A stretch of DNA of 64,000 nt from Dudresnaya verticillata (Eukaryota). The position numbers and the translations under genes were made by a program. Location of the stretch: contig OZ374564.1 in the NCBI GenBank assembly GCA_977862235.1, positions 620,001 to 684,000 of the forward strand, read 5' to 3'. The stretch's first letter is position 1; each line of letters opens with the position of its first letter. The notes under the pieces are model-generated. The model was not told where the DNA came from and did no database searches. It was given only the letters and a program-made list of their open reading frames with translations. This document shows positions 3,627 to 60,916 of this stretch, piece after piece.

Positions 3627-3640
3627 GGTTATGGGCCCAG
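3627..3640 (+). promoter_or_regulatory. Copia primer-binding site
   Basis: GGTTATGGGCCCAG immediately after the LTR; copia-type PBS for a half tRNA-iMet primer. Confidence 0.88.
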
Positions 3641-15360: not shown

Positions 15361-15610
15361 CAGCGCAATTTTCTGGCTAAATTTTAATCCAGAAATGCCG
15401 AAACTTTCCAAACTTTCTCGAAAGTTTCGGGACATTTCACCCCTATATGCGGCACGCCATAACTCCGCAACCGTACATGCTATCCCAAAACCGATTCCAC
15501 TATTCTTCTCAGCTCTCTCTCCCCAGTCTAACGCGATATAGAAATCGTCGTTCCATGAGCATTTTTCAGACTGATTCGCGACACAGATTCTGAAAACCCG
15601 GAAATCTGTG
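15361..15610 (+). repeat. Right-end TIR-like sequence of the putative DNA transposon family (diverged)
   Basis: Follows a GC-rich tract; shares GAAACTTT blocks, CATAACT, CGATTCCAC, TTCTCAGC and a GGAAATCTGTG|TTG terminus with 60575-60852 and 40945-41194. Confidence 0.65.
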
Positions 15611-18536
15611 TTGCTCGTTGACGAATGCATCCATTGTTGTAGCATGCCTCGTTTTCTGCGGTGGATGTGCGACTGAATGCCTGGTCTATATCGGAATGAG
15701 TATGGCCGATGGGCAACAAAGATGCCTGAACCTCCCGTAGAACTCCCCAGGCAAACAAGCTTTCCAAGTAAGAACACGTAAACCTGTTCCTGTTCTCACG
15801 AGTGCAATTGTCCATTTGCACGAATAGTGCGGGCTGTAGAGGGGCTTTGGGATGTCTCAACATCAGACTGCAATGTATTGATTCTATCACATGATTTGCA
15901 CCCGACTCGTGGTCCACAGTCAGTCTTCAATTGTAGGGCTAAATGCTTGGTCGGGCCATTCTCCAGTGCACCCACCACGCTTAGCTGAATGCCATGTCCT
16001 CTCAAATCCTTCGTCTTAACAGGAACAAACGGGAGGACATAGCTCTCCTGGTCTCCTACATCCACGACAATGGAGCGGTACTGCGACTGTTTGCTCAATA
16101 CGCCGCTTGTAGTCAAGTCTTTCCTCGTACACATTTCGATGATGCACCTTGCGACGAACACGGAACGGTCGTGCTGCTACTTTATTATTCCCTGCCCTCG
16201 CCAGTCCGAGTCTGGTCTCCTCATACTAAGAGCAAAGCGTGAATAATTTCTGTTTGCGGACTTTGATTGTGGGCCAGAAGGTTTTCCATGTGACATCAAA
16301 GTAGCTTGTATTTGCTGGGTTCTGTATTCCACACATTTCTTTCTGTTCTGAAATAAATGCCTTATACACATCCTTTCTCGAGAAGTGAGGGAGGTATATC
16401 TCGTTTTTGTGGGGCATTTGATCTCCATCGACCTTAGCGAGCCGGCAGAGGAGGCATACGTCGCTCTCTCTGGTCCGTCTCCCCACCAACCCCGACATAC
16501 ACCGGTCTAATGGAAGCAGGAATAGAGCCCCCTTGTCTCTTGACGGATATTCGCAGATCCCTCGAGAACCGAAGCACCTTCTCCATGAAACTCATACAAA
16601 TAATCTTACCGTGGAACATACACCGACAGTCTCGTTGCATCAATTCGTGAAGATACATGGGACGGTCATAGACACTCATCGGCAAAACACTTAGGGCCTC
16701 AGACTTCATGAATACCAAGAGATTTTCTTAAAGCACTCCTTCCTGATGCAACACTTCTCCCTCAGCCAATCCACCGTATCCAGCTTCTCTAGTGCTTCCA
16801 TGCGGCGCTTTTCAAGTGCCGTGTCGCCAACCCTTCTCCTCTTTCGAGATCGGTCGCGGTACCGATACCTTCGTTTCCTTCCGCTTCCATTATCTTTCAT
16901 AGTCTGCGGTGGCTCATAAGCTTCGTCCATTACCTCTTCGTCGTCCTGGGAGTTTGAGAAAGACTCCCAAACCCTGGACCCTTCATTTTCTGTTTCTTCT
17001 GGACACTCGCCCAGATTCCGAATAGGAATATCAAGTGCGCCATCATCACCAACTTCCCCCAAAGTGTGCTCAACAATGTCTGGAACGCGCCAATCCTTTT
17101 CTTGCGTAGGTGTCCCACCCTATGCATCAGCTTGACCCGGTAAAGGCGTCTCTTTGTCAGACTCCAGGTCTGTGAGACAAGCGGCAGGAGCCTCTTGGGC
17201 TTCATTTTGGGAGGGGACTTCTTCTCCCAAATCTTGATGTAGAGCGTCAGACAGCACTTCAGATTCACCCTGAATGGGATCCAGGGGAGGAGGGGAGGCG
17301 GGGGGATCAACTACGCGCTCTATTTTCTCCGTGGGATTGGTAATTGCGGCGCAGACGGGGGGGCGCAGGGGGACCCAGACGCAGCGACGGGAGCGGCCCC
17401 TGGTGTGGAGGCGCGGGCCTCGATCTCGGTCTCGTTATTGACCGCACTGAAGTCTGGATTCTGACCGCTGCCATTCCCATCCTTCTCCCGAGCATGATGT
17501 GCTATCGCCGAGCCGAGGTTGGATGCAGCACCAGGGTGGGAGTCATTCACGACTGCCTCCCGTTCGTCTCGAATTGATGGGCCTCCTTGACCTGCACGAG
17601 GACTCGGGGATGCGGTCGGTGGCAAGCGATACGGCGGCTTCTTCTCTGGAGTGTACTGCAGCAGTGAGGCCTGAGTTCCAATCGAGTCTACCATCTCATT
17701 GAGATATGTCCGTTTTACCTGCACAAAACCGACTGTGTTCTGCTTTGCAGTCGGCGGAGTGAAGCGAACACTGCGCAAGTGCGAGGCGGTTGTAGGGCCA
17801 TGCGTTGGCGAGCCAGGAAGGCAAAATATCAGTGTGGCAATAACATCGACAACGACACCTTTCTTTTCAACAGGAGACGCACTGCGCCCTAACTCAACAG
17901 GTGTTTCCAGGGTACTTTCCGAAACGCACTCCCTCTCCTTCTCTGCAGAAGAAGTAAACTTTTTCTCCATGACAGCTGAAGCGATAACCCTTTCCGCATT
18001 GTAGACAACGAAGTGATATCCATCTGAAAGGCACCCCATGCATTCGTCCCTGTGATCATGTCTAAAAGCGTTGTCTGTAGAGGGCGCATCGGAATCCACA
18101 GTGAACGGGGTTTGTATGTCTTCGCATCCTGATAGGCATGCAACCTGTTTAACAGCCACCCACAGCTCTGCAAATCTCTGCTCATCCTCCAAGTTATTCA
18201 CGTTGATGACTGTGCAGAATCTTCCACTTCGGTCTGCACCCTTCTCCTATCCATGTTTCGGACGCTCCAACGTAGCTCGAGCCACTTGAGACCCATTCTG
18301 TGTCAAAATGACTCTAGCTCCAGATCGCACCCCTATAGCACAGTGCTATACAAGTCTCTCCGACCTGTGCCTCGCGGCATGGTTGAGAGCTGTCCCCTTC
18401 CGCGTCGAGGCGTGGAGTAGTGCAGGTGGGGTACCTGGTGAGAGTATCGCGCACGGAGCTCTTCTGCCAAAGTCGCTGGTAGGAGCTCGCCTGCCCTGAC
18501 GCGCCCCTGGGCAGAGAGTAGGATTAATATTGCCAC
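15611..18536 (-). pseudogene. DUF7869 / Sola-like DDD transposase, multiply frameshifted and 3'-truncated
   Basis: Fragments in order: CCIRKEC, GDQMPH-EIYLP, W..IKVRK..FTLC, SIVVDVGDQ, VQMDNCTRENRN, LPIGHTHSDIDQAFS; N-terminal half homologous to 56703-58735. Confidence 0.75.
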
Positions 18537-19934: not shown

Positions 19935-20300
19935 GATCTGTATTTATAGCTTTTATAGAAGAAGATCTGTAAAAGCTATAAGTGAATATGACAACTCAAG
20001 AATAGATTTTTCAGGACCGGCCATGTCAATGTCTATTTAAATAGGTTTCACGAAAATCGATCTGTAAAAGCTATATAGATTTTACAGTAAAAGCTCTATA
20101 GCTTTTACAGCAATGAAATTATTCCAGCTATAGACAGATATTTCAAACCGTTGCGCCATTAAAGCTATATAACTTTTACAGGAGCTCTATTACATTAGCC
20201 TCCAGACAGCATTCCACTTCGGCGATCTCGTAAAAGCTGTTTGCAATTATGGATATTCACAAACAGCTTTTACAGCTCTCGATCCGTAAAAGCTATCTTT
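19935..20300. repeat. AT-rich array of (C)TGTAAAAGCT motifs in both orientations, forming palindromes
   Basis: Nine AAAGCT/AGCTTT cores plus degenerate copies, e.g. GTAAAAGCTCTATAGCTTTTAC at ~20087-20108. Confidence 0.85.
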
Positions 20301-20686
20301 ACGGAAACCCGATTCCATTTTTTAGGAAATACGCCGCACCGCTGCTATTTCTTAGGAAACTAACGCAACGCCGCCCCACACTACTCCTCCTATCCTGTCG
20401 TCTTCCGTGCCCAATCGCCCTGCAGTTCTGTTGTCGGTGTCGTCGCTCACTGCCAGCTGGATACCCGATCTTCGCCCCGCCGCTCCGCAGTGTCCCCATA
20501 CTACTGTCGTGATGTCATTCCGCCGCGTCGCACTATGCGCCGCCTCACAGCGCCTGCCCGTCCTAGATAGTATCTGCAAGGGTATCCTTTCTCCTACGAG
20601 TGAGTACGTGGTTCCTACCGTGAAGCAATTCGTAAACAATACCCATAGCCATTATTCATCTAAGATACTTGCGCGCTCCTTACGTT

Positions 20687-23677
20687 TTATCCTTTTGCAG
20701 CAACAGCTTCATTTGATTCGTATACCAAGGAAAAACCGCTGAGTTGGCTAACGGTCTTCGGAAATTCACCCTCCGGGTTGTGAAATCTGCACGGGTACTC
20801 GACATTTTCCATTCCATCAAGATACGCAGACGAAAATACAGATACTAGATGCTGGCCGTTCTTTTGGAATTCTTCCAACGATGTATTATGAGCAGATGTG
20901 CGGAACCTATCTCCTTCGGACACGGGGAGCTGGCACTTCGCACTTCCAACTTCTTTCCCAGGCATAATGAGCATAATATCGTTTCCGCCGCGGAATTCGA
21001 GCCGAACCTGATCAGAAGCAGGAGCAGGTGCAGGCCCCAGTCTGGGTGCGCTGCTTCCTCGAAGGGATGGGTCGTTGTGCTTTCCCAAAGGGCGGTTATC
21101 ACGATTCATGACATTAGGCGCCTCACAGTGTTGCGCGGAATTGATCTTTTGGAGTGCGAGTCTTGCGAGACGGGAGAAAGCAAGCCTGAATGTTTCGCCG
21201 TTCTGTTCAACGGAAGTACTTTTTCGGCCAGTATTCATTGCAGCTATTCCAGTTGTCATGATTCCAGCATACATGTCCAAGTACATGTCCAAAACAGATC
21301 CTCCCGGCGCGCAGAAAGTTGTCATCAGCTCTTCCAACAGACAAACAGTCTTCTCCTCAGACATAACCGGAGATCTCGTCCCCTGCTTCAGTAGTTTCTG
21401 TTTGGGTACAGGGACGACAGAAATGCAAGCAAATTTACGCTTCTCCTTGCTTCGAAGCAAGGCGTAAGGACTGCGTAAATCTGGCTTAAAACCAGTTGGG
21501 TTTTGTCCAGGTACTCTGGCCATGATCAGAATCTCAGTTGCGTTCTGTGGCCGATCGTTTCCACGATGATCCTGAATGATATACGTATCCTCCACGATCG
21601 TGAATGGATATATATGGGATGTCATATCCGCAGCAATGAGAGGCTTGCGCATGGACTCATAGTTCTGGAATGACATCAACATCAGAATCCATCCTCCTGG
21701 TACGACCAACCCACGGAAACGTTCAGAGAGAGATCCCATGTCCTTCTCCGAGAGGTACTTGCCGTACTTCTGGTCTGCTCCAAATTGCGAAGGCAGGGTA
21801 CCGTACGACGAATCAGTTAGGACCAAGTCAAAGGTTGGGAGCCCTGATGGGGGGTATCAGCCCGAACATTCTGGTCGTACTGCTGCCATCTCATTTGATG
21901 GCAACTAAGCCCCATGCGCTGCATTACTTCGCGAGGAGAAGGATTTTCGGGTTTGCCATAGTCTGAATTCACCTCAGGAAAGAGACGGTCTGACTTCTGC
22001 GTACTCGCAGTGAAGTAACGTACTTTTCGGGGAGTATCCTTGCTCTCGTCCTCATTTCCTGGTTTCCCACCAGGATTGGAACCGCACTCAGGCCCTTTTG
22101 CTCGTTCCTGTCCTCGGCGTTCAGTTGTTTGTAAAGGGGCGTCTCCTCTATCATCTTCTACACCTGTTTATGGTGTCGGATAGGGGTTTGCGCTGTCTTC
22201 CGGAGTATCATCTACAGCAGCCTGCTCGTTGCAGGGAGCAATTTGCGCTTCAGGCAAGGTGTTGGTACCGCTCCCAGCGTCTTTTGCTTCCGCGGAGGTG
22301 GTAGCAGTGTTCGGAGCTTTCACAATGCGGGACTTACACTTGAATAGTTTCATCGGTGCCTCCTCGGGGCATGTATCCCGGTACATGTCCAGTATTTCCT
22401 TCAGAAATCGCGTTTCGTTCCCCTCATTTATACGTACTTGTAAGTCGAGCTTCCGAGTTCGAAACAGGTTGGTCCTAAGCACTTCCATTTCGGCAGGCCA
22501 CTCAACAGACTCCCGCATATTCTCAAACTTCCTAACCTCGCGTAGAGCCCGGGAGGCTCTCACAAACGCTTCTACAGTGGCCGTATGCGGAGCAGGTCTG
22601 AAGCCCTGAAGCCGGGACCGGTCTTTGAGTCTGTAGAGAGTGGCTATCTGCGCTTTCACGCATTCTTCTGTATCAAATGCCCTAATAAATGCTGCCGCCG
22701 ATTTCAGGGACGATGGGTGGATGAATCGCCTGTACACTCTACAGTACATCGAAGACAGTGCCGTGTGCTCAGCGACACGACCTGATGATTTTTTGAATGT
22801 CGCTGTCGCCCCCAGTAACGGCAGTTCTTCCGTCATGAAACTTCCGATTGCCAGCGCCCTTCTCTCCAGAGGGAGAACAACAGCTGCTGTTTGCTTAATC
22901 GTACTTCAGCTTAGATGGGAAGCAGCATCGAAAGCGGTGGCAATTGTGGCTGCCGACGGATCTTTCCCATTGTTGGCGGCGCACATTCGATCGTCTTCGT
23001 CGCGAAGTCCTCGTAGAGTGTCGTAGAGGGTAGATTCAATGTAAAAGGAGGCATCGTGTCTCCTGTTCTGAGGTCTCGCGAATTGGCGAAGGACATTAAT
23101 ACCGCATGCAGTCTTGATTTACAGAACGGGCCATTCGAACGCCTTCCACAGTTCATACTCCTCTCTTATGAGTTCATGAATTGCGACAAGTCTGTGCATA
23201 CGATCCATGACCCCGTACCAAATCCCGCGCTGCTCAACAGCCTCTTGTACCTCCTTCCCACTGCGGGAGGTTACGTCTTCCTTTCGCTTCTCAGCGTTTC
23301 GCAGTGAGGTATTCCGAAATATACTTGCGACGGCTTCCCGTCAGTTGCACGATAACGGGTATGTCAGCACCTACCACATACCCTGTACAGTCTGGAATGT
23401 GTACTCCTTGAAGGCCAGTGGAATCATTTCCTCTCCCGGACTTGGCTTGGAACAAGCGTTTCAAGCGTTCAACGCCCGAACGGGAGATTGGTCGAATGTT
23501 CGTCAGCGGTATGCATGCCCGAGGATCGACAAAAATATTTGCTGATCCCCTGAGAAGTTCCAGGAACATAACATTCGCCTGTGGAGAAGCCGTTGCAGGT
23601 ATCGTGACGTCTGTTCCATGACCAGGATCGACTTATTTTCTTGCAGACTTACGGCGCTTCTTCCGGTGCGGAGGCAT
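20687..23677 (-). pseudogene. ParB/Srx-like domain + beta-class N6A/N4C DNA methyltransferase fusion, copy 1 (frameshifted)
   Basis: IWYGVMDRMHRLVAI (ParB-like); FDLVLTDSSYG (DPPY position) precedes EK..LLEELM..F..PGGSVLDMYAG..TTGIAA...GR (SAM-binding); colinear with 50796-53599. Confidence 0.8.
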
Positions 23678-24289
23678 GTCAGATCACAGACTAGTCGTTG
23701 TGTTGCTCGTACTTGCAAGTACAACATGCAATGGGCCAGGTGGTTACTACGAGGGTAGAGCACCAACGCACAATGAATACATTATCACCCAGGTTATGTA
23801 GCACGGAATATCCGTTCCTGTATAACGCGGGAACGTAGTTCTCTCTCTTACTCTAATCTCCGTTGCAGCTAATATTTAATCCAATACCACTATTACTCCG
23901 TACAGTGCGAAAGAGCCTACCGTTTGGTAGGTCCTGGCAACCAACTACCAATCCCTGTCCTGGTGTTGCCACCCCCACTTTCTCCACTGGAACGCCCGAC
24001 CCTGTACTGTTCTTATTGCAGTAGTGCTACTCTACAACCTAGGGTAATGAAGCTTCATTCCGCATCTGACAGCACTCTGTCACGCTATGAGGCGGTGAGG
24101 CACGCTCCGCCAGCGTGCCAAACCAACCTCTGTGCGAGCAATGCTCGTTAAATATTGACCGTACGACCTAAAACCCTTCAATGCCGCATCAAGCTCTATC
24201 GTCGCTATTGCTGTGTTGTGCATGCAGAAGATCGCTGCGAGAAGTTTTATCCTGCCTTGTACCATTCAGATGTCTGACTCCGTCGAGGA

Positions 24290-37633: not shown

Positions 37634-38479
37634 TGTGGTGCAAGGGGAGGGCTGCCCCTTTTTCGCTCTGAGCGTATTATATGCCAACGTCCACCGAAGG
37701 AACGTCCACCGCCGTTGGCGCGCGAACACGTCATCGACGATTGGCCCACGGGCATACGGCCGCCGTTACCCCGCGCGGCGCGGCGCACGCGCCCACTGTA
37801 CGGCCAGATCCGGATGCACGATCCCGATCGGCCGGGCGCAAGGCGCCCGCCTGTAAGCTTGGCCCGCATCCGGATCGGATCCGGATGGGGCATCGAGATC
37901 CGGCATCCGGATCCACAGTGATGTAAGGAGCGCGCCTGTAATGGCCGCGCGCCAGCAATGCTGGCAGGGATCTGGATCCGAATCCGGATCACCCGCAATG
38001 CTACGCGCATGCGCCTGTAAGCTACTCCTGAGCTCCCGCGCGCGCGGCTGCATGGCGACGACGACGTGTCAGACGCTCGACGACGTGACACGCGTCCTGA
38101 GTTCCCGCGCACCGCGCCTACCGCCGTCGCTCACGTAGTATATTAGGTAATCCGTCTGCGACGCTGAGTAAACCCCGGACAAGCCGGCCTTGGTCCAGAC
38201 TTCCCCGTTCCGCACGCGTGTACCCTACTGATGCCTACGGCTAAGCGTCTACCTCCCGTGCTTCCACGTCTCTACCCGTCCTTGACGTGCTTCCCTTTTG
38301 TTTCCTTTCTGATCTCTTTTCCCTTCCTTTCCGCATCGGGCGTCTACAGTCCGCCCAAGGCGTGTTCCTTTGCTCTACCAACAAGTCGCCCACGGCGGGA
38401 TCATCCAACGCCGAGGGCGCAGCTACCCACCGAGCCCCGAACTGCTCGGCGGTCCATCGTCTGTGACGTTTGCACCACA
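37634..38479 (+). repeat. Gypsy 3' LTR
   Basis: Direct repeat of 25071-25916 with few substitutions. Confidence 0.96.
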
Positions 38480-43430: not shown

Positions 43431-43437
43431 TATAAAA
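43431..43437 (+). promoter_or_regulatory. Putative TATA box of NRT2
   Basis: TATAAAA ~125 bp upstream of the ATG, followed by a pyrimidine-rich leader. Confidence 0.55.
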
Positions 43438-43554
43438 GCACTGCCCCAAAAAGGTACGACTATCCTTCTCTCCGCAGAGCACCATCTATTCTTCTTCCTC
43501 GAATACCTGCGGAAAGAGGGAGTTGGGTTTCATTTCTTGTCAATAGTTCCAGGA

Positions 43555-46010: not shown

Positions 46011-47395
46011 CAGGCCCCACCGGGGATCCGCGGTCCAGACCCGACTTGCCGCGATTTCCCACTGGGCCCAGGCCCCCCTTAAACACTCTGAAGTCTGCAA
46101 CTCCCACCGCATGTCCCATCGGGTCACATCTTACCTGCGCTCAGTTCTTGCTGGCAGCTATGTAGCTGTTCTTGTACCTTTCTTTGGGTTCAGCAACCTC
46201 GAAGAAAGGGCCGGCTAAATTTGTATTGGAGATCGTGTTCTCTCACCGCGCAGAGCTGCAGTCACCATCACGAGCATTGTGTGTTAAGAGAAACGCAAGC
46301 TTCGCATATGGCGCCTGGAAAGAACTCTGACTGTTATCTGTTCTGTCTAAACGCGCGAGGAGGCATCTAGAACATTTGCCGGGTGTAGACCACAACGGGG
46401 CGACAAGCGCTGCGGAAATAACCCCAAAAAACCTGGTCATTGCAGAATATGGGTCTTTCCTGTGATTCTGTGCACAAAAGTATTCAGCGCGTCGGTGTGG
46501 ATGCCCTAATCACTGCGATGATTACAGCGGAAGAAGGGAATCATATTAGTAGTCCGGAAGAACTCGGATTTACCTTATAGAGCAAAACAATATTTCCCAG
46601 TTTCAAAAAGCAACTTGATGGTGCGGAAGAGCATCGCCAGTCCCTGATGCGTTCTCCCGCTGCAGCGTAGCCCGCCGCTACGAAATGATACCCTAAATCC
46701 TCAAGTGCAGTACTGAAGCTGGGAACGCCTCCAATTTCTTGAGGAAGTGGCCCGTTTCAAAAGCAGTAGAGCGACTGTAATCTGCCTTGATTGCTATATG
46801 TACAGGTAAAGCAAGTATTAACCGCTCGACTATGATGATTCTGCCAATTACCCACCAGAACCAACTCTGTAGTTAGCTGTGTAAACCTCCTTGGACGGTA
46901 GCTATCCGCCGTAATTCTGTTAAACGCAACCGGTGACCCGACGTCTCACCGAGTACTAATACGTATTCTCTTCTACCTAGTGTTTATGTTCCTGATACTG
47001 GATCCCCCAGTAAGCTGTCTTACATAATCCATCAGTTGTTGAGAAAACATTTCTTGTGCAGCTCCCATTAGTTGTCGCGACATTCGCCTACCTTTTCGCG
47101 CATGACTACGGATCCTGGTATTGAGCCCTGCTCATGCCCTCCCTTACTGGCGAATGGTGTAGTTTCACATTCACCCTCTTCAGCGGCACCTCCCCCTTCC
47201 GGCCTTGCCCTCTTTCCCACAGGCTCTTCGTGTTCATTCGTATTTTTATTCAATTCGCGTTTTGTTCCTTCAGGCATTTCTCTTGCCACTGCATCGTCGG
47301 CTATTTCTCATGTCTTCAGGCCTGTAGCGGTCGCCCTTTCACTGAATCCATCACCTTCAACTCCCCCGATATGACCATCAGTCTCGTTCGGTGAA

Positions 47396-47652
47396 CACTA
47401 CTCTCGAGAAATTCAGAAACAACTTTGCAAAACAGTATCAAATTGTACCCCGATTTCTTTAGCTCTATGGAACCATGAGCGTGCGCTGAGAACAACGGTG
47501 GAATCCGTTTGTCTATAGCGTAACTAGTTCAGAAGTTACGGCGCACTAAACACAGTCTGTACCCCCCAAACGTTTCCGAAAGTTTCACACTTTTCCGAAT
47601 TTCTGTAAAACATTTTTAATTAGATTTTCCCTCGCCCTGTGCGCCCCCAGGG
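47396..47652 (+). repeat. Left terminal inverted repeat
   Basis: Reverse complement of 60575-60852, with roughly 15 substitutions and a few indels by eye; starts CACTAC. Confidence 0.92.
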
Positions 47653-48309
47653 ACGCCAGCACACTCGCCGCATCACCGCTGTCGCCCCCGCCCGCCGCCC
47701 TTGCATCGCGCCGTCCATGCACCGCCCCGTCCCCGCACCACACCGCGCGCACCACGCCGCCCCTGCACTACGCCACGCACACCACGCCTCGCGAACTATT
47801 GTCGTCACCCTCGCTCGCCGCCCCTGCACAATGCCGCGCGCACCATTGCCGTCGCCCCTGCTCCCCTCCCCTGCCCAAAGTGCCAGCCCTTCGCGTATTC
47901 GCGCACCCGGCCTGCCCGCGTCGGCCCTGTACATGATGTCAGGTACCTGAAGGGCGTCCCTGCGCGGCGACCGTGCTTGCCGAACAGGCACTTGACGTCC
48001 TTGCTAGGCGTCCCTGCTCACTGCGCACGGTTGCTCTACCTGCATGTGTCAATCCTGCGCACAAGCACTGCAGTCAGGACATGCACTGACAGACTGTAAC
48101 AGTACCCTCGCTTCATCCCTCCTCAGTCCGCCTCGCGCAACTTCCCCTTCTCGCTGCCGTCCCACGTGGGTGTACACCCAAGACCCCGTAATTCACTCCC
48201 ACTCTGCTCTTGTGCTCACCTTCTGTCTCGAACCAGTGGTATCGCAATGCACACCGTCCGTCGCCATTGCACGCTGCTGCGAAAACGCCACCTTTATCGT
48301 ATCTAAACT

Positions 48310-48984
48310 TCACCTTCTGCAGTACTCGTACGGGATAGTCCCAATACCCTTGATGATTTCTCTCATCTTTGCTGCATGCCTGCAGCAATTGTATCGCCTG
48401 CGGATGATGTTTGCCAGCCTTGGTGGTTCGTTCTGTTCTCCATTCTTAACCTCATCCATGCAACCGCAGTGCGGATCGATCCACGTGTCGCAGAGTTTCA
48501 CTTTCTTACTGCGCCTCTTGAACTCCCGCCATTCCCGCCCGTTATACGAGAACTTGTATTCCCCCCTGAAGAATCGCTCTGAATATGACTGTGGTCCTGA
48601 CTGTGTTGATTCTGCCCCGTACACACGTTCGTAGAACTCTTTGAGATTACTTCTGTCGTAGAGGTGCACACCGAGGTCTGCAAGGCCGAGTACCTCCTTC
48701 TTCACCTCGATGGCACTGCTCACTTCTCGAACAATGACATACTCTCCGATTCGCTGCACAGCCTCCTCAAGTGTCTCCCCAGGCTGGCAGTGCTTGTGAA
48801 GGTCGAGAATATGCATTCTGCCCTTCCCTGACGTTGTAGATTCCTCTTTGTTAAATTCTGGTTCCTGACCTGCGCCTGTCCCCGAATCAGGACTCCCTGC
48901 TGAGTGTTCGGGGTCACTCTCTTCTTCATCACTGCTGATTTGTATCGCCTCGTCCACTTCGATGGCCTGTGTGATGTCGCCCAT
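48310..48984 (-). CDS. Unknown Cys-motif protein family 1, copy 3 (most intact)
   Basis: MGDITQAIEV...ETLEEAVQRIG...LGLADLGVHLYD...FYERVYG...WIDPHCGCMD...RLANIIRRRYNCC. Confidence 0.75.
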   Translation of the reverse strand: MGDITQAIEVDEAIQISSDEEESDPEHSAGSPDSGTGAGQEPEFNKEESTTSGKGRMHILDLHKHCQPGETLEEAVQRIGEYVIVREVSSAIEVKKEVLGLADLGVHLYDRSNLKEFYERVYGAESTQSGPQSYSERFFRGEYKFSYNGREWREFKRRSKKVKLCDTWIDPHCGCMDEVKNGEQNEPPRLANIIRRRYNCCRHAAKMREIIKGIGTIPYEYCRR

Positions 48985-49000: not shown

Positions 49001-50032
49001 TGTTGAGGACATGGTCGCTGGCGCCTCACGTCACGGGTCAGGCACCCCAGATGGCACCCTGTCACGCTGTCACCAAACCTTCCGGAGACGACAGCCCTTT
49101 TTCCGGGCTTCCAAAATCACGGCGCATTTAGGCCTCTTGCAAAAGCAACGTGAAACGGGCTTCTGATTGGTTGTTACAAACCGCCTCCATGGTCTATATG
49201 GCTTACAAGTGTTGTGCTGGAATTGGCGGTTATAACAGGAACGGCCAAGTGGAACGATCTGATTGGACCACATGGATGCACGTGGTATGGCATGGAATGG
49301 TACTGGTATGACGCGCACTGTACTCCACAAGTACATGTGAACGTGCCATGCAATGTGCTGATGGCGTCTGAGTTGGTACTGCAGGGACTTGCGCTACGTG
49401 AGCCTGGCTTGTGATATCAGCAGATGCAGTTGTCGTGCGGCCGACACGTTGGTTTACAGTTGCCACGTCGCTGTCGTGCGGCCGACACGTTGGTTTACAG
49501 TCGGCACGTAGCTGTCGTGCGGCCGACACGTTGGTTTACAGCTGCCACGTAGGCAAATCTGGGTGATTACGTGGTCAATGATCCAAGTTGGATATTCATG
49601 GACGGACTTCAGCTCGTAAGTGCGGCCACGTGGTGTGCAGTGTTGTCCGACAGCAGCCATGCGGGGACACTCGATACTTTCGAGTTCCCGCCCAAAGTTG
49701 GAGTACATATTATTGGCAGGAAATGCGGTCGCAAGAGGGATTGCTGATGTCAGCAGTTAGCAACACTGGTGTGCAAGTTCCCGCCCATTTTGGTGGCGGA
49801 TGTGAGTGTGCTGAGAGTATGATTTGGTAGATTTGATTGCTTTACTTTTTCCCGCCCATTTGACGGTAGGGATTTTGGGCGTATCTTTAATGATTTGTTT
49901 TGTTTGTGTTCACGCAGCAACTCATCCGAAAAGCTGATATAAGCCTTGTCGGATGGTCGACTGCAGTAAACGAAGTCAAGCGACTTCCATTTCTCATCTT
50001 GTTCAACTCCAACCTCTCCATATTCCTTTTCA
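49001..50032 (+). mobile_element. Copia solo LTR with a perfect 5-bp TSD (GCCAA)
   Basis: Same LTR as 2553-3626; GCCAA at 48996-49000 and 50033-50037; three 41-bp units. Confidence 0.97.
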
Positions 50033-50795
50033 GCCAAGGTCACTTTCCTCGTGCTGGCCAGAACGCGACCAATTCGTGTGCTAGGGGCCTTCGACATGTG
50101 CCATCTTGTAAGATCTGGAGAGTTCGGAATGCCGTACAAGTCTCCCGCAGTAGACTGTAATTTCTTCGCGTATGTGGAAGCACAGTACTAAGGTGCAATA
50201 ACCGGGATGTGACACGGAAAGGGCGTGTCCACACTTTTCAGATTCCCATGACGTAGTTCACAGTTCTGAAACTGATGGACATACCGGCCTCTGTACAGTG
50301 CTATTACGGCAACAGGATCAACGAGTTTCTCAGTAGGAGCGTTTCTGCTCCCGGTCTGAAACATATGGGGGAAGGATTGAGTACGACGAGGGCATTACCA
50401 ATAATTCTGGTGTGACTTCATATGCATATGCGTTGGACACATTCCTACTGTGAGATATGCCGCGAGCTATATTTGCCTTGTAATGCCCGCGGGAATGCGC
50501 GCTTTTTCGACTCTGTACGGTCACTATGGTGCCTCTAGCTCTCCCTGTCCGGGCATAACTGAGTTGTAGAGACTGCACATACTCCTGTGCCCGCAGGCCC
50601 CGAAGACTGGTTTCCGGTACAGTAAAGTGGCTTCGTTGTCACTGCTAGAGTGGTTTTGAAGCAGTAACAGTGCAAAAAGGAGTTTGATCCAGCCGATATC
50701 TCCTACCCAGTTACTGCACTTTCCCTAAGTCCGAAGTCAAGCAGTTCATCACGATCATCTCTTTGCACTTGCGACAGACCACCTGCATGTGCGCC

Positions 50796-53599
50796 ATGGG
50801 CAGAAAGTCCAACAGAACGAAGAAGACGCCCGTGACAAATGACCGTAATGAAGTCGGCCTGCACCAGCAACAGATTCTGTTCGCTGATCTGCTTGACGGT
50901 TCCATGCTGAAGCGTGTCGATCCCCGGGCTTGTGTATCCCTCACCAAGGTCAGGACGATATCCAGGTCTGGAGTCAAACGGCTCAAGCCTATTTTCATCG
51001 GACTAGGAGGGGTACAAACCAGAGGATGCCACATGCTCCCGAGTCGATACGATATGTTGCAGGAAGCGATATGCCAGTGATTATCGAGCTCACGGGAGCC
51101 CTTCGCAAGCATGTGAGAGACTATTTTCGAAGTACTCGGAATAAGGAGGGAGCGTACCATACGGAGAAGAAGATAAAGGAAATCATCAGTTCGAGAGGAG
51201 TGTGGTACGGCGTCGTAGATGGCATGCACCGGATGGTTGCAATTATTGAGCCCATGGACATACACGACGAGATAGGGAAGACATTCTCGTGGCCGGTTAT
51301 GCATGTCAAGGGCGGGGCGTCTCTGCAGGTTCTAAAACAGTTTGCAAGACACCAGAACCGCAAACATCAGTCTGCTTGTTATGTAGAAACCACGTTCTTT
51401 GACACACTGAAAGGCCTGCGTGAAGAAGCCGACCGTCTGCAGGCTGAAGCCAATGGAAAAGAGCCGACAGCGAAAGCAGTGGCCGCGGCGTTTTATGGTG
51501 CTTCTCATCTTCACTAGAACACAATCAGGAAAACAGCCCAGGTTGTTCTTCGATTGCATAGATCGGTTCTAGATACTATCGGGGAGATTGCAACACAGGA
51601 GGATGCAGACTTGGCGGCCTCGACTTCCCTTGGAAGTGCAGGGGCTGGAATTTCCAGGCAGCTCGTAATGTCTTCGGTAGACTGCCGAGTCTATCGGGAT
51701 TTTATCCATATATCGTCACTGAAGTCTGCTACAGTTTTTATGAATGCCGGCCGGTCGCCAGACGGGGTAGAGGCTCAAATATGTACCTTGTACAGGCTGC
51801 GGGAAAGGGCCAGAATGCATAATTTCAGACCTGCACCGTACAAGGTCACAGTCGAGGAATTCGAGAGAGCAAGAGACGCGCTGGTAGAAGTTAGGAAGTT
51901 CGAGAGCCTGAGGGAATCCCCGAATTGGCCTTCAGCTATGTCCGTTCTGAGGACCAATATGTTGCACACGCGCAAACTGGACCTGGACGTTATGTCGAAT
52001 CGTGGAAACAATCACATACTGAAGTCGATTCTTACCATGTACCGAGACAGTTGCCCAGGGGAGGCTCCACAGAAAATAGAGAAATACAACCGCAGATTAG
52101 AAATTGCGCAGGCACGATTATCGTCTAGCACAGATCCAAAGCATCCTGAAGAAGAGAAGAGCCCTGACAGTCACATGAAACATGTGCCGTCTGGAGTGCT
52201 CTTGAACAAAACTGCTTCACAATGGGCCCCACAGACAGATATGGAGAAGGAGAACGACGACAACCGCAGTGATCCCGACCACCTGGGCTGCACTGCGAGA
52301 AGCTCAACTCCGGTTGAGTCCCTTCCTGTGATCAACGGGAATGAAGGAGACGCTGTCACACCTATCCCTTTGCCCTCAACGGCCACTACGATAAGATCGG
52401 AAAGATTGGATACTGTTAAGAAGCTCAAAAAGGATAATAGAGACGATGTTGCAACATCGGACGAGATACTGAAATCGGAAGACCTTGGGTGTCACCAAAT
52501 GCGCTGGGTGGACTACAACCAAAAATACAAGAAAAGTGAGAGCAACCTGTTTGACTGCATTCTGTCGGACACCCGTATGGCACCCCTGCCTCACAGTCTC
52601 GAGCTGGGAAAGGGTATGACAACCAGCTCAGCACTTCAGAAATGAACGAGTTGGCTGAGTTTTGCCGGCAGACAATCGCCCCGGGTGGTTGGGTGTTCCT
52701 GTTTGTGTCATTTCAGACCTTTGAGCCCATGAGGCAGGCACTTTCAAAGAATAGTTTCGACTGCCCAACGTATGCATTCGTGATTCTGAAGGATACCGGT
52801 ACTGTTCAGGAACCCAGGGGCAACGAAAGGCCGCAAAATGGCGCAGACATAGCTGTTTTTGGGAAAGCACCGGGTATACACCCATCCGGTTCAAAGGTAG
52901 ACTTGAAGAGCCCCTATCACTTATTGATATTGGGTATACACCCATCCGGTTCAAAGGTAGACTTGAAGAGCCCCTATCACTTATTGAAATGCCAGGAGAA
53001 AAGGAAGTTCGCATGCATGTCATCTGTTCCAGTCTCCAAAAAGAAACTGTTGAGACCTCAGACAAGATCCCCAGCAGGCCGAAGAAAAGAATGTTGACTT
53101 GCTCGCGGAAGTTCTGACGACGTTCTGTGCAGAGCAAGGGCATGTTCTGGATATGTACGCTGACACGATGACGACCGGCATACCCTGAACAGATGGAACC
53201 GTTGACCAAGCGGCAAAATGTCGAGACAGGAGCAGTGCCTGCTAAGGTCAGGGGATGGAATGAGAAACAGGAAGAAGGGGAAGATGTGACCCAACGCGGA
53301 GAAATCAGTGGAGGAGATCAAGTCACTCTCTTCATTGACAAGAAGGCTGTAGGAACTTGCAAGGTTCAGTTCGGGTGGACAGGGCGCGATTTCGGGATAG
53401 CATCCATGGTACTGCGTTATCCTCCTTTCAAAGAGAAGATCACCATCTTGTCGCAGTCTATCCATTCAAAACCGCGACGCAAAGCTCCCATTTGCGACAA
53501 CCGTACTCATACCGGGAGGTAGATGGTGAGATCCCGACAACATTGAGTGAGATCCAAAGCTTTTTTGCTTGTGGCGTCAATCAGATGGCATTGACATGA
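50796..53599 (+). pseudogene. ParB/Srx-like domain + beta-class N6A/N4C DNA methyltransferase fusion, copy 2 (frameshifted)
   Basis: VDPRAC..VRTISRSGVKRL, MPVII, VWYGVVDGMHRMVAI; FDCILSD-x-PYGTLP across compensating indels; PGGWVFLF; VLDMYADTMTTGI; 60-bp tandem duplication at 52872-52988. Confidence 0.8.
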
Positions 53600-54773
53600 A
53601 CTCACAGGACGAGCTTTTGATGGTCATCGTCGAATTGGGCGAGTTTCCTGAGATTAGCAGGCGACCGTTCGCAAGGACGCCTTACAATAAACTGATACCA
53701 GCCTGCTGGCGCTCTACAGACACAGATTCCTTCCGCACAGACGTCATCGCCCCTGCAGTGTTTCTCATAAGAACGGAATCGACCAGACTGCAACGTTTCG
53801 TTTGCGAGCCTGACAAATTCGGTCCGCGTTGCAGTCAAGAAGCTGGGAGGTAATGCATCGCCTGATGAGAAGGTGCATCTTGGGAATGCGCAACGAAGAG
53901 CGGTTAATGGTTGACGTAGCCGCGAGCTTCCAGGAAACGGCAGTGCGAAATCTGGAGCAGCGCGCGGGGGGCGCCCTGTAGATTTGCGCTGCACACAAGA
54001 CAGGGGCGCGCACGCTGGTTGTGTCGGGCAGCCGCCGGTGCGGCGGCCAACGCAGTGGTGAGAAGGTGGGTAATTGCGGCGTGCGAGCGGCACGGGTGTA
54101 CATGCGCCATCCCGTCCAACGAGCTGTGCACCGCGGTGCCGAAACGGGGGGATGGATGTGCGGGCGAGAAGGCCGCTCGCGGGGCTCCTCGCGCAGCAGG
54201 AACGAAAAAGCTCCGATAGCTATGTGCTGTCTCGTGCGGGAAAAGCCATTCCGTATTATTGATAATACGATGACAGTTCTGATTGCTTGGCAAAGGGGAA
54301 AAGGTTTCTGAAAGCTTCCCTTTCTGCGCTGCAAAGAGCAGCTGCTTCGTTGTCCCAGGGCCCGCAAGGAAAATATCTGTTGAAAAGCTTTACTTTCGTA
54401 TGAAATACGAAACCTTTTTAGATATTCCGGTTCTGGCCGTATCAATACCCAATCAGAAGTATTTGACAGATCATTTCCAGGAAAAGCTATGTTGCATTAT
54501 CCATACTACACCTACAGTTTCGCGGAGCTCGCCCTTTGCAAAACTTAAAGTTTCGTGTCGCGACCCGCTACTCCGCTCGTGTTTCTCCGACGGGCCGTCG
54601 CCTGGCCTCTACCTATTCTCCCCAGGCACCGTTGCTACCTCGGAGCACTTTGTTCACGGTCTGTGCCGCACTGTCCGCAATTCGGCCGATGGCGATGACA
54701 GTGGTGCTGAGAAATCACCGGTCGATCCGCGGTCGTCGGACCCGACACGAAGCCAGGCCCCGGAGAGCCTAAC

Positions 54774-56702: not shown

Positions 56703-58735
56703 TCATTGCGCACTAGTTTTGGTGAAGACTCTCGCCTTGGCAGGTCCATCGCGAATCTCCTCACATTCTGCGCACTTCGTAAAGCGACTTACTTTTCGTA
56801 CCCTAATGTGGGAACAGTGTGCCTTCCACGTAGCGTAAAAGTAGCTCGCGCGTGCAGGTGTCTCGCCACTATACAAAAGGCCCTGGTCTGTTGTGAATTG
56901 CTCGTACAAAGTCTTCCTGTCAAAGTATGGCAGATGTATTTCGGCTCTGTCCGGCATATGGTCTGCAGTAGCTTCAGCAATCCTCTCGAGGTACGAAACG
57001 ATTCTGTCCCGTTGTTCAGAATTTGCGTCTCGCGGAGTGGAATCGGAGAGGGACAACGAACCGCCAAACTCCTTGACAGACGTTTGCAAGTCCCTTGAAA
57101 ACCCAAATGCTTTCTCTAAGAAATTGTAGCACACCAGAGCACCATTGACCGGTAAAACCTGTCAGGCTGGATCAGGCGGAATAGATAGTCCCTCCTTTCG
57201 TTCTTTTCCATCATCAGAACACGACGAGCTTCGGCCTTGAGTTAAACCTGCTCACAGGCCTGGAAACATTTCTTTGCAGAACAGCACTTCTTGCGCTCCC
57301 AGTCCTCCGTGTCTATCCTCGCTAGTGCAGCCTTACGCCTTATCATCAAGTCAGTCTCGCCCTTCTTGGGCCTCTTACTAACACGTGAACGATAACGATA
57401 AATTCGCTTCTTAACGGCACCAATTCCCCTCATACCGTTTCCTCTACGTTCCTCAGAACCAACACGAGCAGCCGCTCCTCCACTATCTGCGTCCTCCTCA
57501 TCTTGGTAATCCGGGTCAGAGAGCATTTCTGTTCCATCTGCCACCTCTTCAGCAGTTGCTGCCAATTCATCAGCAGGTTCTGTCTGTGCGCCACCCCGAG
57601 TGACAAGGTCGACAGTGGATTCCGAACCCTCACCTTCTTCGCGACGGTCTTTCCCCTCGCTTTCTTCCTCCACCGCCCCCTCGACGTCATCGTCCTCAGC
57701 TTCCTGTTCTGCTCCTGCTATCTGGTCTGCATCCTGGCCTGGCCCTGCTTCATGGTCTGGCCCTAGTTCTCCTAAGTTCCCTGGTTCCGCTTCGGCCATA
57801 ACGTTGTCATCTTCAGTGATCCCCTTCTTCTCGTTTTGAATAATGCGGTTTGCTGGCTTTTGAGGGCGTGGTCGTAACGGGGGGCTTTTCACCGGGGTGT
57901 ACTGCAGGGGAGATTCCATATCTCTATCGTCTTCAAGCACAATGCCACACCTTTCCCCGGGTGACATGAATGGGTCCGGATCCTGCACGACTGTCTCCCG
58001 ACCACCGGCATCTGCTGCTACAGGCGTGCGAAGAGGGGTGTTAGGAGGTCTTGGGCTGCGAATGGTGCCCTTACCTTGGCCCGGTGTATGCAGAGTACCG
58101 GAATCAGGGCATTCCTCTCGGTCCCTTTCAAGTAGCATTGCCTCTCCAGGGTTCATCTCTGGCCCAGACTCCATCGCCTCCTTCAGATACACAGCCACCA
58201 TATCCTCGAACTGGTACAGATCCCAACAGTGCTCACCTTTACCAATTTTTTGTAGCATCTTGGGAACCGCCCTGTCAGATAAGTACTGAAATGAGTTGGG
58301 TAGGCGCTCTGCTCCGGGTAGACAGTGCACTCGGTGGATCGCTACCCATACCCCCCCGGGGCGTTGCTGCTTACTGAGAGAATGGCCGCCAAGGACTGTG
58401 CACAAACGACCGCTTGGGTCCTCCGTCCCGGGCGGTGGCAGCAAGGGAGTGGCACGAGCCACATGCTGTCCTCCGAGAGTTAGCGAGACGCGCGAATCCG
58501 GCTTGACATGGGGTTGAGTAATACTTACCTCCGTAGATGTGGGGCGACCTGAGGCTTCTTCCATAGCGTCAAAACGCGGCAATAGGGGCTGGTCCGGCGA
58601 TGCCTGGGAGGGAGGGAAATCAGGAGAGCTCGGAGGCCACTGCGAGGGTAAAGGTGCATTGCAGGCACCGATCGCTTGTGGAAATATCTTAAATAGGTGA
58701 GGTTTGCGAGTACCGGAAAGATCGCAGTGCTCCAA
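56703..58735 (-). pseudogene. N-terminal half of the DUF7869/Sola-like transposase gene, copy 2 (catalytic core absent)
   Basis: LQYTP, RIYRYRSR, D..DW...KCC..KKCF, ADHMPD.AEIHLP, ASYFYATWK..IRVRK..RFTKCAEC match the 16177-18536 fragments; likely ATG at 58564. Confidence 0.72.
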
Positions 58736-60139: not shown

Positions 60140-60545
60140 GCAAGCATCAGCAGCAATCAAGCGGGCGATCATTAGCGGCGGTCAGACGGGCGGCAACTAG
60201 ACGGGAGAGCAGTAGCGGCGGGCAGACGCGCGGTAGACATTCGCGGCGAGCAGATGAGCAGCAGGAGAGGCGAGGAGGAGTAGCAGCAGATGCGCGGTAG
60301 ACAGTCGCGGCGAGCAGGCACAGCGAGCAGGCGGGCGACCAGTAGTAGCAGCAGACGCGCGGCTGACAGGCGCGGCGAGAAGGCACAGAGAGCAGGCGGG
60401 CGACCAGTAGTAGTAGCAGACGCTCGGCTGACAGGCGCGGACAGCAGATGAGTAGCGAGCAGGCGGGCGTGCAGGAGCGGCGGGCATGGGCGGCGAGCAG
60501 GGACGCTGGGCACGGGTGGCGTACAGGAGCGGCGGGCAGGGGCGA
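60140..60545 (+). repeat. GC-rich subterminal degenerate tandem repeats (~65-bp units with AGCAG/AGTAG runs)
   Basis: GAGCAGGCGGGCGACCAGTAGTAG..GCAGACGC.CGGCTGACAGGCGCGG repeated at ~60325 and ~60390, plus looser copies. Confidence 0.75.
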
Positions 60546-60574
60546 CAGCAGTGGTGCGGGGAGTACGTTGGTGG

Positions 60575-60852
60575 CCCTGGGGCGCACAGAGCGAGGGAAA
60601 AATCTAATTAAAATTGTTTTACAGAAATTCGGAAAAGTGTGAAACTTTCGGAAAAGTGTGAAACTTTTGGAAACGTTTGGGGGGTGTACAGACTGTGTTT
60701 CGTGCGCCGTAACTTCTGAACTACCTACGCTATAGACAGACGGATTCCACCGTTGTTCTCAGCGCACGCTCCTGGTTCCATAGAGCTAAAGAAACCGGGG
60801 GACAATTTGGTACTGTTTGGCAAAGTTGATTCTGAATATCTCGAAAGTAGTG
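60575..60852 (-). repeat. Right terminal inverted repeat
   Basis: Inverse of 47396-47652; contains a 19-bp tandem duplication CGGAAAAGTGTGAAACTTT; ends GTAGTG. Confidence 0.92.
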
Positions 60853-60916
60853 TTGTTGGTGAATGAACTGTTGAAAAGCTCGTTTTGCTTCATTGAATAG
60901 TTGTCTGGTTCTGGTA

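What the first reader, a model, noticed from the sequence alone, without database searches (positions are those of the whole stretch)
50796..53599. Prokaryote/phage-style ParB-like + beta-class amino-methyltransferase fusion in a eukaryotic repeat
Seen: an N-terminal VVDGMHR motif (ParB/sulfiredoxin-type GxHR), a helical middle region, then a DPPY-position motif placed before the SAM-binding motif, which is the beta-class order of N6A/N4C MTases. Known: ParB-MTase fusions are typical of phages and bacterial mobile elements, and amino-MTases are uncommon in eukaryotes. Inference: the intact protein could write 6mA or 4mC on the element or on host chromatin.
Basis: partly seen in the sequence, partly recalled or inferred. 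Interest (0 to 1): 0.85.

Follow-up and report, generated by a model that had tools for sequence, protein, structure and literature searches.

The report
Dead transposon ParB–methylase cargo gene
This is a broken copy of a bacterial-style ParB-plus-DNA-methylase gene lying inside what is likely a 13.5-kb eukaryotic DNA transposon; intact relatives are predicted to methylate their own element, a design already described in algae but not yet tested.

Summary
The architecture is real, but this copy is dead. Against an intact 1010-aa relative it is 43% identical, with 5 frameshifts (one inside DPPY), 2 stops, a 60-nt duplication and a deletion. A second, diverged copy at 20.7–23.7 kb is also broken. 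A model of the intact relative gives a ParB/sulfiredoxin fold (Z 7–9) and a beta-class amino-methyltransferase (CcrM, Z 23.7). The gene lies in a 13,461-bp element with ~375-bp imperfect terminal inverted repeats (AACAC…GTGTT, flanks GGTG/GTTG), which also holds half of a DUF7869 gene. DUF7869 models as a transposase/integrase fold with three conserved aspartates. The same gene pair occurs in 2 of 3 metagenome loci with enough flank, and the two proteins share a 90-aa domain. The context is eukaryotic (Copia, chromodomain Gypsy), not contamination. The design is in print: Ectocarpus Sola1-1_Ec32, and related cargo genes in red algae. What my searches did not find in print: at least 206 clusters at 50% identity, 32 of 55 full-length members lacking DPPY, and the domain shared with the transposase. 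Likely mechanism (untested): the ParB part loads at the element's palindromes and confines adenine methylation to the element.

The parts
47394..47768 (+). Left terminal inverted repeat (imperfect), begins AACAC; preceded by GGTG (47390-47393)
   Evidence: (86% identity over 327 columns with the right arm, sharp outer boundary)
48310..48984 (-). ORF X, unknown protein inside the element; homologue at about 9870-10300 (+)
   Evidence: 38% over 188 aa, E 1e-31; no Pfam family
49001..50033 (+). Partial solo-LTR-like copy of the repeat that flanks the Copia element at 2344-9869; a nested insertion
   Evidence: 93% identity; Copia domains between the two other copies
50796..53590 (+). Copy 1: ParB/Srx + helical + linker + beta-class MTase + C-terminal beta domain; pseudogene with 5 frameshifts, 2 stops, a 60-nt duplication and a deletion
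50865..51370 (+). ParB/sulfiredoxin-fold domain; Box II motif DGMHR at 51218-51232; one frameshift near 51025
   Evidence: model of relative P0003: Srx Z 9.2, SerK 8.8, pNOB8 ParB 8.5, PadC 8.4, KorB 7.4
51400..52090 (+). Conserved helical region; its first part resembles a ParB HTH by eye (recalled pattern, not tested directly); stop at 51515-51517
   Evidence: pNOB8 ParB aligns over model residues 65-404
52480..53188 (+). Beta-class amino-MTase domain; DPPY broken at 52568-52578; SAM motif DMYADT at 53150-53167
   Evidence: (CcrM Z 23.7, M.BceJIV 23.0)
53313..53590 (+). About 90-aa beta domain, also found at the N-terminus of the neighbouring transposase-like ORF
   Evidence: E 3e-8 here; 4e-6 at 58217-58492; 3e-15 in DUF7869 protein P0297; no Pfam or Atlas match
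56715..58735 (-). 5' half of a DUF7869 transposase-like gene, broken; the catalytic core is missing (profile positions 49-296 of 808 only)
60469..60854 (-). Right terminal inverted repeat, ends GTGTT; followed by GTTG (60855-60858; 3 of 4 match to the left flank)
20700..23680 (-). Copy 2 of the ParB-MTase gene; pseudogene (5 frameshifts, 4 stops; motif IV reads DSSY)
19937..20305 (.). Array of inverted GTAAAAGCT/AGCTTTTAC units downstream of copy 2 (10 of the window's 20 matches)
15660..18321 (-). Broken DUF7869 transposase-like gene next to copy 2, reaching into the catalytic core
   Evidence: (PF25273, E 1e-23)
15330..15612 (-). Third, diverged copy of the AACAC terminus; it interrupts the copy-2 transposase and has no partner in the window

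Best explanation
The locus is a broken ParB-plus-methyltransferase gene lying between ~375-bp inverted repeats together with half of a DUF7869 gene, so it is likely the dead accessory gene of a 13.5-kb cut-and-paste transposon, and its intact ancestor would likely have methylated adenines in its own element. Shown here: the lesions, the domain order, the inverted repeats, the repeated gene pairing and a domain shared with the transposase. Predicted from models of relatives: the ParB/Srx fold, the beta-class MTase fold and the transposase fold. Inferred mechanism: the ParB/Srx domain binds an NTP through its GxHR box; the helical region recognises palindromic units on the element; the protein loads there as a dimer and spreads locally, as bacterial ParB clamps do; the DPPY domain then writes N6-methyladenine in cis, keeping the element in a state that favours its expression or transposition. 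The shared C-terminal domain would tie it to the same DNA sites or partners as the transposase. My odds: dead ParB-MTase transposon cargo 0.9; methylase-active ancestor for this clade 0.75; cis targeting through ParB loading about 0.45.
For: Lesions. Family: 2228 clusters at E<=1e-3 and 206 at 1e-30; 67 of 174 fetched proteins (near-identical cluster members included) carry both the ParB part and the MTase part. MTase: PF01555 in 48 of 51 long relatives; profile hits M1.HpyAVI 1e-18, M.BceJIV 2e-15, CcrM 1e-10; CcrM Z 23.7, rmsd 3.2, 231 aligned. ParB/Srx: rows 21-28 are all ParB/Srx-fold chains (Srx Z 9.2, rmsd 3.2, 87 of 89 residues); Atlas nearest clusters are phage ParB-like (score 0.92). 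Both window copies are sisters inside a 10-row clade (SH-aLRT 98) whose 8 intact members all keep GxHR and DPPY. Element: inverted repeats with AACAC ends and GGTG/GTTG flanks; a DUF7869 gene near both window copies and head-to-head with the MTase gene in L012 and L026; two same-source contig-length matches between the families against 0.15 expected (indirect); shared 90-aa domain. The DUF7869 model's top 20 rows are all transposases or integrases, with D156, D278 and D280 invariant in 118 sequences. Palindrome arrays lie just downstream of the gene in copy 2 and L026. Precedent: Sola1-1_Ec32.
Against: No activity, expression or methylation data were obtained. ParB Z-scores of 7-9 are near the tool's stated background; Pfam ParB_N and TIGR00180 are not among the first 25 families listed for 70 members, which give only sub-threshold DndB (6 of 70), GmrSD_N (2 of 70) and DGQHR (3 of 70) hits. 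Atlas hits share only 112-121 of 256 features. 32 of 55 full-length relatives lack a DPP[YF]-like motif and 31 lack GxHR, so catalysis is not needed family-wide. The co-retention of the two motifs (Fisher p 1e-6) is not supported once relatedness is taken into account (independent pairs, median p 0.5-1). Copy 1 has no clear palindrome array, and the arrays of copy 2 and L026 differ in sequence; they could equally be transposase sites. The 4-bp flanks match at only 3 of 4. L003 shows no DUF7869 gene in about 2.9 kb upstream. Gene orientation differs between loci (convergent, tandem, divergent). Nucleotide choice cannot be predicted from sequence (PMC12704722).
Confidence: 0.6

Rival explanations
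1. The protein is mainly a DNA-binding helper of transposition or an anti-silencing factor; the methylase fold acts as a binder or scaffold, and catalysis is incidental.
For: 32 of 55 full-length relatives have lost the DPP[YF]-like motif (EPPS, AIPx, DPFQ) yet keep long ORFs and the fold's other motifs; at least 6 state changes on the tree. L026 has an intact 994-aa frame with AIPS next to an intact transposase. The most invariant columns lie in the helical region. A domain is shared with the transposase.
Against: The clade that holds the window copies keeps GxHR and DPPY in 8 of 8 intact members, and 23 of 55 members across several deep branches keep the motif, which points to selection for catalysis.
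Confidence: 0.22
2. The intact enzyme writes 4mC rather than 6mA, or acts genome-wide on host chromatin without ParB-based targeting.
For: N4C enzymes score nearly as well structurally (bdelloid N4CMT Z 19.4, M.PvuII 19.3); several top viral matches are annotated as N4-cytosine MTases. Some D-initial motifs belong to N4C enzymes (recalled, not tested).
Against: No SPPY among the motif-IV variants of 87 aligned sequences; DPPY is the commonest. Iyer et al. tie serine in this position to N4C. The four best structural matches are N6A enzymes.
Confidence: 0.12
3. The locus is a working host gene whose breaks are introns, recoding or sequencing errors.
For: Both copies have a stop at the same aligned column (residue 279 of P0003), TAG in copy 1 and TGA in copy 2. 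No reads could be laid on the region.
Against: Breaks are 1-2 nt shifts, a tandem duplication and a deletion, too small for introns, and they hit the catalytic motif; the SAM glycine is also substituted; relatives are single ORFs through that column. The neighbouring transposase is also broken, while the MFS transporter frame at 43369-44979 is intact.
Confidence: 0.04
4. The segment is bacterial or phage contamination, or a misassembly.
For: The domain combination is typical of prophages (PMC12704722), and a phage ParB-named protein ranks second in the viral fold search.
Against: The window carries a Copia and a chromodomain Gypsy element; an LTR-like copy sits inside the element; GC and GC3 match the neighbours (0.50/0.54 against 0.51/0.52). 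Phage matches cover only the MTase domain (22-26% identity in the 15 of 70 rows shown); plasmids give no match to the N-terminal half; 0 of 4 viral-contig pattern hits were real.
Confidence: 0.02

Closest known systems
Sola1-1_Ec32 accessory gene of Ectocarpus (Dinatale et al. 2025, PMC12477816; passages and one supplementary table row read)
   Same: ParB-like domain plus N4C/N6A methyltransferase in one ~1100-aa protein, carried by a large TIR DNA transposon beside its transposase; long imperfect TIRs (282 bp there, ~375 bp here), AAC-starting ends (AACCG there, AACAC here), 4-bp target duplication (imperfect here); same proposed self-marking role.
   Different: That family has 2 intact copies and a transcribed gene; this copy is a pseudogene with half a transposase. 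Sequence homology to the Ectocarpus protein and the Sola1 assignment of DUF7869 could not be tested (sequences not available). The passages read do not mention catalytically degenerate clades or a domain shared with the transposase.
Plavaka accessory genes PAG2 and PAG3 of red algae (Petroll et al., bioRxiv 10.1101/2025.02.11.637652; section 8 and passages read, supplements closed)
   Same: Red-algal transposon cargo with PF01555 (PAG2) and a ParB-like N-terminus (PAG3), inverted-repeat arrays next to the gene, mobile between transposon superfamilies, mostly degenerate copies.
   Different: There the MTase goes with SET and the ParB domain with a 2OG oxygenase, in separate genes. Here ParB and MTase are fused, 0 of 51 long relatives show SET or a 2OG family, and the partner is DUF7869, not an EnSpm/Plavaka transposase. 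Whether PAG2 has an unannotated ParB N-terminus is unknown.
Phage/prophage ParB-N6N4-MTase fusions (PMC12704722 and PMC4738411, passages read)
   Same: Same two folds in the same order; likely ultimate source.
   Different: Identity at most about 26%, mainly over the MTase domain; about twice as long, with a ~230-aa helical region, an acidic linker and a C-terminal beta domain; embedded in a eukaryotic transposon.
Beta-class DNA amino-MTases (CcrM, M.BceJIV, M.MboIIA, M1.HpyAVI; bdelloid N4CMT)
   Same: Fold and motif order (Z 19-24; profile E 1e-18).
   Different: N4CMT is a host enzyme with SPPY and a chromodomain that marks transposons (recalled); this family has DPPY or degenerate motifs, a ParB module, and is carried by the transposon itself.
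ParB-family clamps (Spo0J/ParB, KorB, VirB, BisD)
   Same: ParB/Srx fold with Box II GxxR-type motif, followed by a helical region; palindromic arrays nearby in two loci.
   Different: No ParA partner seen; HTH, dimerisation, nucleotide and sliding are all untested; the Box II arginine is kept in only 40 of 79 aligned sequences.

Membership tests
Beta-class N6A/N4C DNA methyltransferases (PF01555) | Motif IV (DPPY-type) before the SAM-binding motif; PF01555 above cut-off | tested here: met
   Relatives: 45.9 bits against cut-off 26.7 for P0003; copy 2 piece 31 bits; order shown
Beta-class N6A/N4C DNA methyltransferases (PF01555) | Fold match to solved beta-class enzymes | tested here: met
   Model of P0003: CcrM Z 23.7, rmsd 3.2, 231 aligned; Foldseek E 2.5e-11
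Beta-class N6A/N4C DNA methyltransferases (PF01555) | Intact frame and catalytic/SAM residues at this locus | tested here: not met
   Frameshift inside DPPY, G to D in the SAM motif, 5 frameshifts and 2 stops
Beta-class N6A/N4C DNA methyltransferases (PF01555) | SAM-dependent DNA methylation; target base | not testable with these tools
   needs an assay or long-read modification calls
ParB/Srx superfamily | ParB/Srx fold with Box II GxxR-type motif | tested here: met
   8 ParB/Srx chains at Z 7.2-9.2, Srx 87 of 89 residues, rmsd 3.2; DGMHR in copy 1; D181 72/79, G182 77/79. Z is only modestly above the tool's background
Canonical ParB CTP clamp | TIGR00180 / ParB_N profile hit | tested here: inconclusive
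   Not among the first 25 families listed for 70 members; only sub-threshold DndB, GmrSD_N, DGQHR
Canonical ParB CTP clamp | HTH domain recognising a parS-like palindrome | tested here: inconclusive
   Helices 264-272 and 281-291 in the model; pNOB8 ParB aligns to 65-404 at rmsd 4.4; arrays in copy 2 and L026 but not clear in copy 1
Canonical ParB CTP clamp | Homodimer, NTP binding, sliding | not tested
   no complex prediction was run; binding and sliding need experiments
Cut-and-paste (DDE/D) DNA transposon | Terminal inverted repeats | tested here: met
   47394-47768 and 60469-60854, 86% identical, AACAC...GTGTT
Cut-and-paste (DDE/D) DNA transposon | Target-site duplication | tested here: inconclusive
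   GGTG against GTTG, 3 of 4; about 5% by chance
Cut-and-paste (DDE/D) DNA transposon | RNase H-fold transposase with an acidic triad | tested here: met
   For the DUF7869 family: top 20 rows transposases/integrases, Mos1 catalytic domain Z 8.1, rmsd 3.4, 162 aligned; conserved D375, D457, D497/D499 in P0180 numbering. In copy 1 the catalytic half is deleted
Sola1 superfamily | Transposase homology to Sola1 references | not testable with these tools
   No Sola reference sequences were available; the DDD resemblance is recalled; TIR length, AAC ends and 4-bp flanks resemble Sola1-1_Ec32
Plavaka accessory gene PAG2 | PF01555 fused to SET (PF00856) | tested here: not met
   0 of 51 long relatives with SET at E<=0.01
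Plavaka accessory gene PAG3 | ParB-like N-terminus fused to a 2OG oxygenase | tested here: not met
   The C-terminal catalytic domain is an MTase in 48 of 51 long relatives

The most novel reading that the evidence does not exclude
A large family of eukaryotic transposons (at least 206 clusters at 50% identity) runs a transplanted bacterial ParB-type switch: a nucleotide-gated clamp loads on the element's own palindromes, slides, and lays a cis-limited 6mA mark, co-ordinated with the transposase through a shared 90-aa domain; more than half of the lineages have since dropped the catalytic motifs and kept the protein as a pure loading or anti-silencing factor.
Probability: 0.3. Interest if true: 0.8.

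Novelty: new member of a known kind. Interest (0 to 1): 0.38.

Why it matters
The locus itself is a fossil and cannot mark anything. It matters as a pointer to a family. Transposons that carry their own DNA-marking enzyme have been proposed from domain annotation in brown and red algae but, in the papers my ten searches found, not tested. This work supplies intact DPPY-clade proteins (P0003, P0005, P0011, P0022), a natural catalytically degenerate control next to an intact transposase (L026), candidate sites and element ends, which makes the question directly testable. If the clamp model holds, it would be a ParB-type switch working on eukaryotic chromatin and a source of 6mA independent of the host's MT-A70 enzymes. 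A side result: Pfam DUF7869 models as a transposase/integrase catalytic core.

Tried and rejected
No whole genome is held for the window, so copy number and intact copies in this organism are unknown. No sequencing run was listed (no RNA holder listed; not evidence). The first metagenome scan with N-terminal peptide patterns confirmed 0 of 433 stretches; the viral scan with P0003 matched nothing. The DNA-pattern scan gave 34 metagenome loci, of which 9 were real and 25 chance; 0 of 4 viral loci were real; only 3 of the 9 had more than 2 kb of flank. Pfam on the pieces of copy 1 found nothing. Coupled loss of GxHR and DPPY: significant by Fisher test, not after phylogenetic pairing, so not claimed. 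The C-terminal domain looked to me like the Tnp1/En/Spm (Transposase_23/DUF8039) domain (recalled); Pfam and the Atlas gave no support, so not claimed. Similarity between the L026 ends and the window's termini or arrays was not above shuffles. A 22-nt inverted pair around the L003 gene showed no obvious terminus features. A CACTA-type end was considered (CACTA lies 2 nt inside the arms) and rejected because homology starts at AACAC in all three termini. No ParB reference alignment could be fetched for a profile-profile test of the HTH. A homodimer prediction was not run. The DUF7869 profile has no useful sequence hit in the PDB and the term is in no held paper. The papers defining Sola were not held. 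The host taxon was not determined: the transporter's exact sequence is not in the collection; 'red alga' is my inference from gene style and the literature.
Full report
Observation. The interval 50796-53599 holds no single open frame. A frameshift-aware alignment to an intact 1010-aa relative (P0003, found) covers residues 43-1006 at 379/881 identity and shows 5 frameshifts and 2 stops. There is also a 60-nt tandem duplication at 52872-52990 and a deletion of about 26 residues after the SAM-binding motif. VVDGMHR is intact at 51212-51232. The DPPY position is broken by a missing base at 52571-52572, and the SAM motif has D where 58 of 64 relatives have G. A second copy at about 20700-23680 (minus) is 343/926 identical to P0003, with 5 frameshifts and 4 stops.

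The family. A profile of 8 relatives finds 2228 clusters at E<=1e-3, 675 at 1e-10 and 206 at 1e-30 in the 50%-identity library (the weaker hits may be MTase domains alone, and I saw only the best 150). Of 174 proteins fetched by then, 67 carry both the N-terminal and the MTase parts, and only one protein of 600 aa or more with the N-terminal part lacked an MTase hit. PF01555 is found in 48 of 51 long members and SET in none. Phage genomes match only the MTase domain (70 records, 22-26% identity in the 15 rows shown), and plasmids do not match the N-terminal half.

Folds. An AlphaFold2 model of P0003 from 87 sequences has mean pLDDT 81. Residues 601-856 match beta-class amino-MTases: CcrM Z 23.7, M.BceJIV 23.0, M.MboIIA 22.0, M1.HpyAVI 21.8, bdelloid N4CMT 19.4. 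Residues 61-231 match eight ParB/Srx-fold chains in a row: sulfiredoxin Z 9.2 (87 of 89 residues), SerK 8.8, pNOB8 ParB 8.5 (extending to residue 404), PadC 8.4, KorB 7.4. These scores are only modestly above the tool's background, but they are consistent with each other, with the Atlas neighbours (phage ParB-like clusters, 0.92, low shared-feature counts) and with weak DndB, GmrSD_N and DGQHR hits. The helical region after it looks like a ParB HTH to my eye (recalled pattern); I could not test this by profile.

Motif decay. Among 55 full-length members, 19 keep both GxHR and a DPP[YF]-like motif, 27 keep neither and 9 keep one. On a quick maximum-likelihood tree without the motif columns, the two window copies are sisters inside a 10-row clade (support 98) whose 8 intact members all keep both motifs; the motifs change state at least 8 and 6 times; independent pairs do not show coupling. 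So this lineage descends from a likely active enzyme, while much of the family persists without the catalytic motif.

The element. Copy 1 lies between inverted repeats at 47394-47768 and 60469-60854 (86% identity over 327 columns, sharp outer edge). The ends read AACAC...GTGTT and the 4-bp flanks are GGTG and GTTG. A motif for this terminus occurs three times in the window, the third at 15612 in a diverged copy. Inside the 13,461 bp are an unknown ORF X, an LTR-like insertion, the ParB-MTase gene, two unassigned ORFs (54711-55586, 55493-56044) and the 5' half of a DUF7869 gene. Copy 2 also has a DUF7869 gene 2.4 kb downstream (PF25273, E 1e-23), with an array of inverted GTAAAAGCT units between them. 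A pattern scan of metagenome contigs gave 9 real loci of 34; two of the three with enough flank (L012, L026) have a DUF7869 gene head-to-head with the MTase gene, L003 does not. In L026 both frames are open (914 and 994 codons stop to stop), motif IV is degenerate, and an inverted-repeat array lies 200 bp downstream. Two same-source contig-length coincidences between the two families (0.15 expected) hint at two more pairs, one with an intact DPPY (indirect). The MTase's C-terminal 90-aa domain recurs at the N-terminus of the window's transposase-like ORF (E 4e-6; E 0.08 for copy 2) and of 1 of 120 DUF7869 proteins (E 3e-15). A model of DUF7869 from 118 sequences (pLDDT 87) has an RNase H-type core; its top 20 structural matches are all transposases or integrases at Z 6.4-8.7 (Foldseek weaker), and conserved aspartates fall at the ends of strands 1 and 4 and the start of the last helix.

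Context. The window is eukaryotic: a Copia element and a chromodomain Gypsy element, an uninterrupted MFS transporter frame ('nitrate transporter' is my recall), uniform GC near 0.5. A red alga is my guess; it was not tested.

Mechanism. Shown: lesions, domain order, repeats, gene pairing, shared domain. Predicted: the three folds. Inferred: an NTP-gated ParB module loads a dimer at palindromic units on the element and spreads, and the DPPY domain writes 6mA in cis. The clamp cycle is taken from bacterial ParB, KorB, VirB and BisD as summarised in PMC12704722 (passages), which also reports that nucleotide choice cannot be predicted and that 17 of 28 purified candidates bound none. The main rival is a non-catalytic helper role, supported by the degenerate clades. 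4mC or genome-wide action is less likely; a working host gene and contamination are unlikely.

What is known. Dinatale et al. [quoted passage not shown] Petroll et al. (bioRxiv 2025.02.11.637652; section 8 whole and passages; supplements closed, and they may hold the sequences needed to test homology) describe PAG2 (MTase plus SET) and PAG3 (ParB-like plus 2OG oxygenase) with adjacent inverted-repeat arrays. Iyer et al. (PMC4738411; passages) list eukaryotic N6A-MTase clades from phage ParB-terminase loci. Iyer et al. 2011 I saw only as a citation. PMC5751038, PMC3985635, bioRxiv 2021.09.26.461848 and PMC9861306 (passages) gave no Sola motifs or red-algal 6mA data. An earlier scan note (e1-6729163) pointed me to the Ectocarpus paper. 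My searches found no test of activity, no mention of DUF7869 and no description of the degenerate clades or the shared domain; subscription journals and Repbase Reports were not searchable.

Verdict. A new, decayed member of a recently described kind of transposon accessory gene. Interest 0.38: the locus is dead and the concept is published, but the family-level findings make an open question testable.

Noticed in passing
window 51515-51517 and 22906-22908: Both broken copies have a stop at the same aligned residue (279 of P0003), TAG in one and TGA in the other; relatives read through. Probably coincidence; unexplained.
   Followed up: partly
window 48310-48984 (-) and about 9870-10300 (+): ORF X, an unknown protein in two diverged copies, each next to a copy of the Copia LTR and inside an AACAC terminus; a candidate further cargo gene.
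   Followed up: partly
window 15612-15330 (-) and about 41100-40800 (-): Two further diverged copies of the terminal sequence; the first starts with AACAC in register, the second does not; no partners in the window.
   Followed up: partly
window 1-3003: A 517-codon RVT_1 frame (900-2450, minus) lies between a near-perfect inverted 451-bp copy of Copia LTR sequence (1-451 against 2553-3003); an inversion or an assembly artefact.
   Followed up: no
window 25069-38479 and 61643-64000: A Gypsy element with ~850-bp LTRs and a chromodomain integrase; a rearranged, partly inverted copy at the window's right end.
   Followed up: partly
window 54711-56044 (+): Two unassigned ORFs (292 and 184 codons) inside the element, no Pfam match; possibly captured host sequence.
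   Followed up: partly
window 23840-23890 and 10760-10820: A short shared segment (80% over 54 nt) between the region upstream of copy 2 and the region beside ORF X, suggesting another decayed shared gene.
   Followed up: no
L003:1401-2087 (-); L017 near 430-600: Some relatives end in a Cys/His-rich segment (C-x-C ... H-x-x-C ... C-x-x-C) resembling a PHD/RING-type finger; no Pfam hit.
   Followed up: no
L026:3330-3684: Tandem 41-bp and 49-bp repeats between the divergent transposase and MTase genes.
   Followed up: no
window 21800-21820 (-): Copy 2's motif IV reads GAT TCG TCG TAC (DSSY), two C-to-T changes from DPPY codons in CCG context.
   Followed up: no
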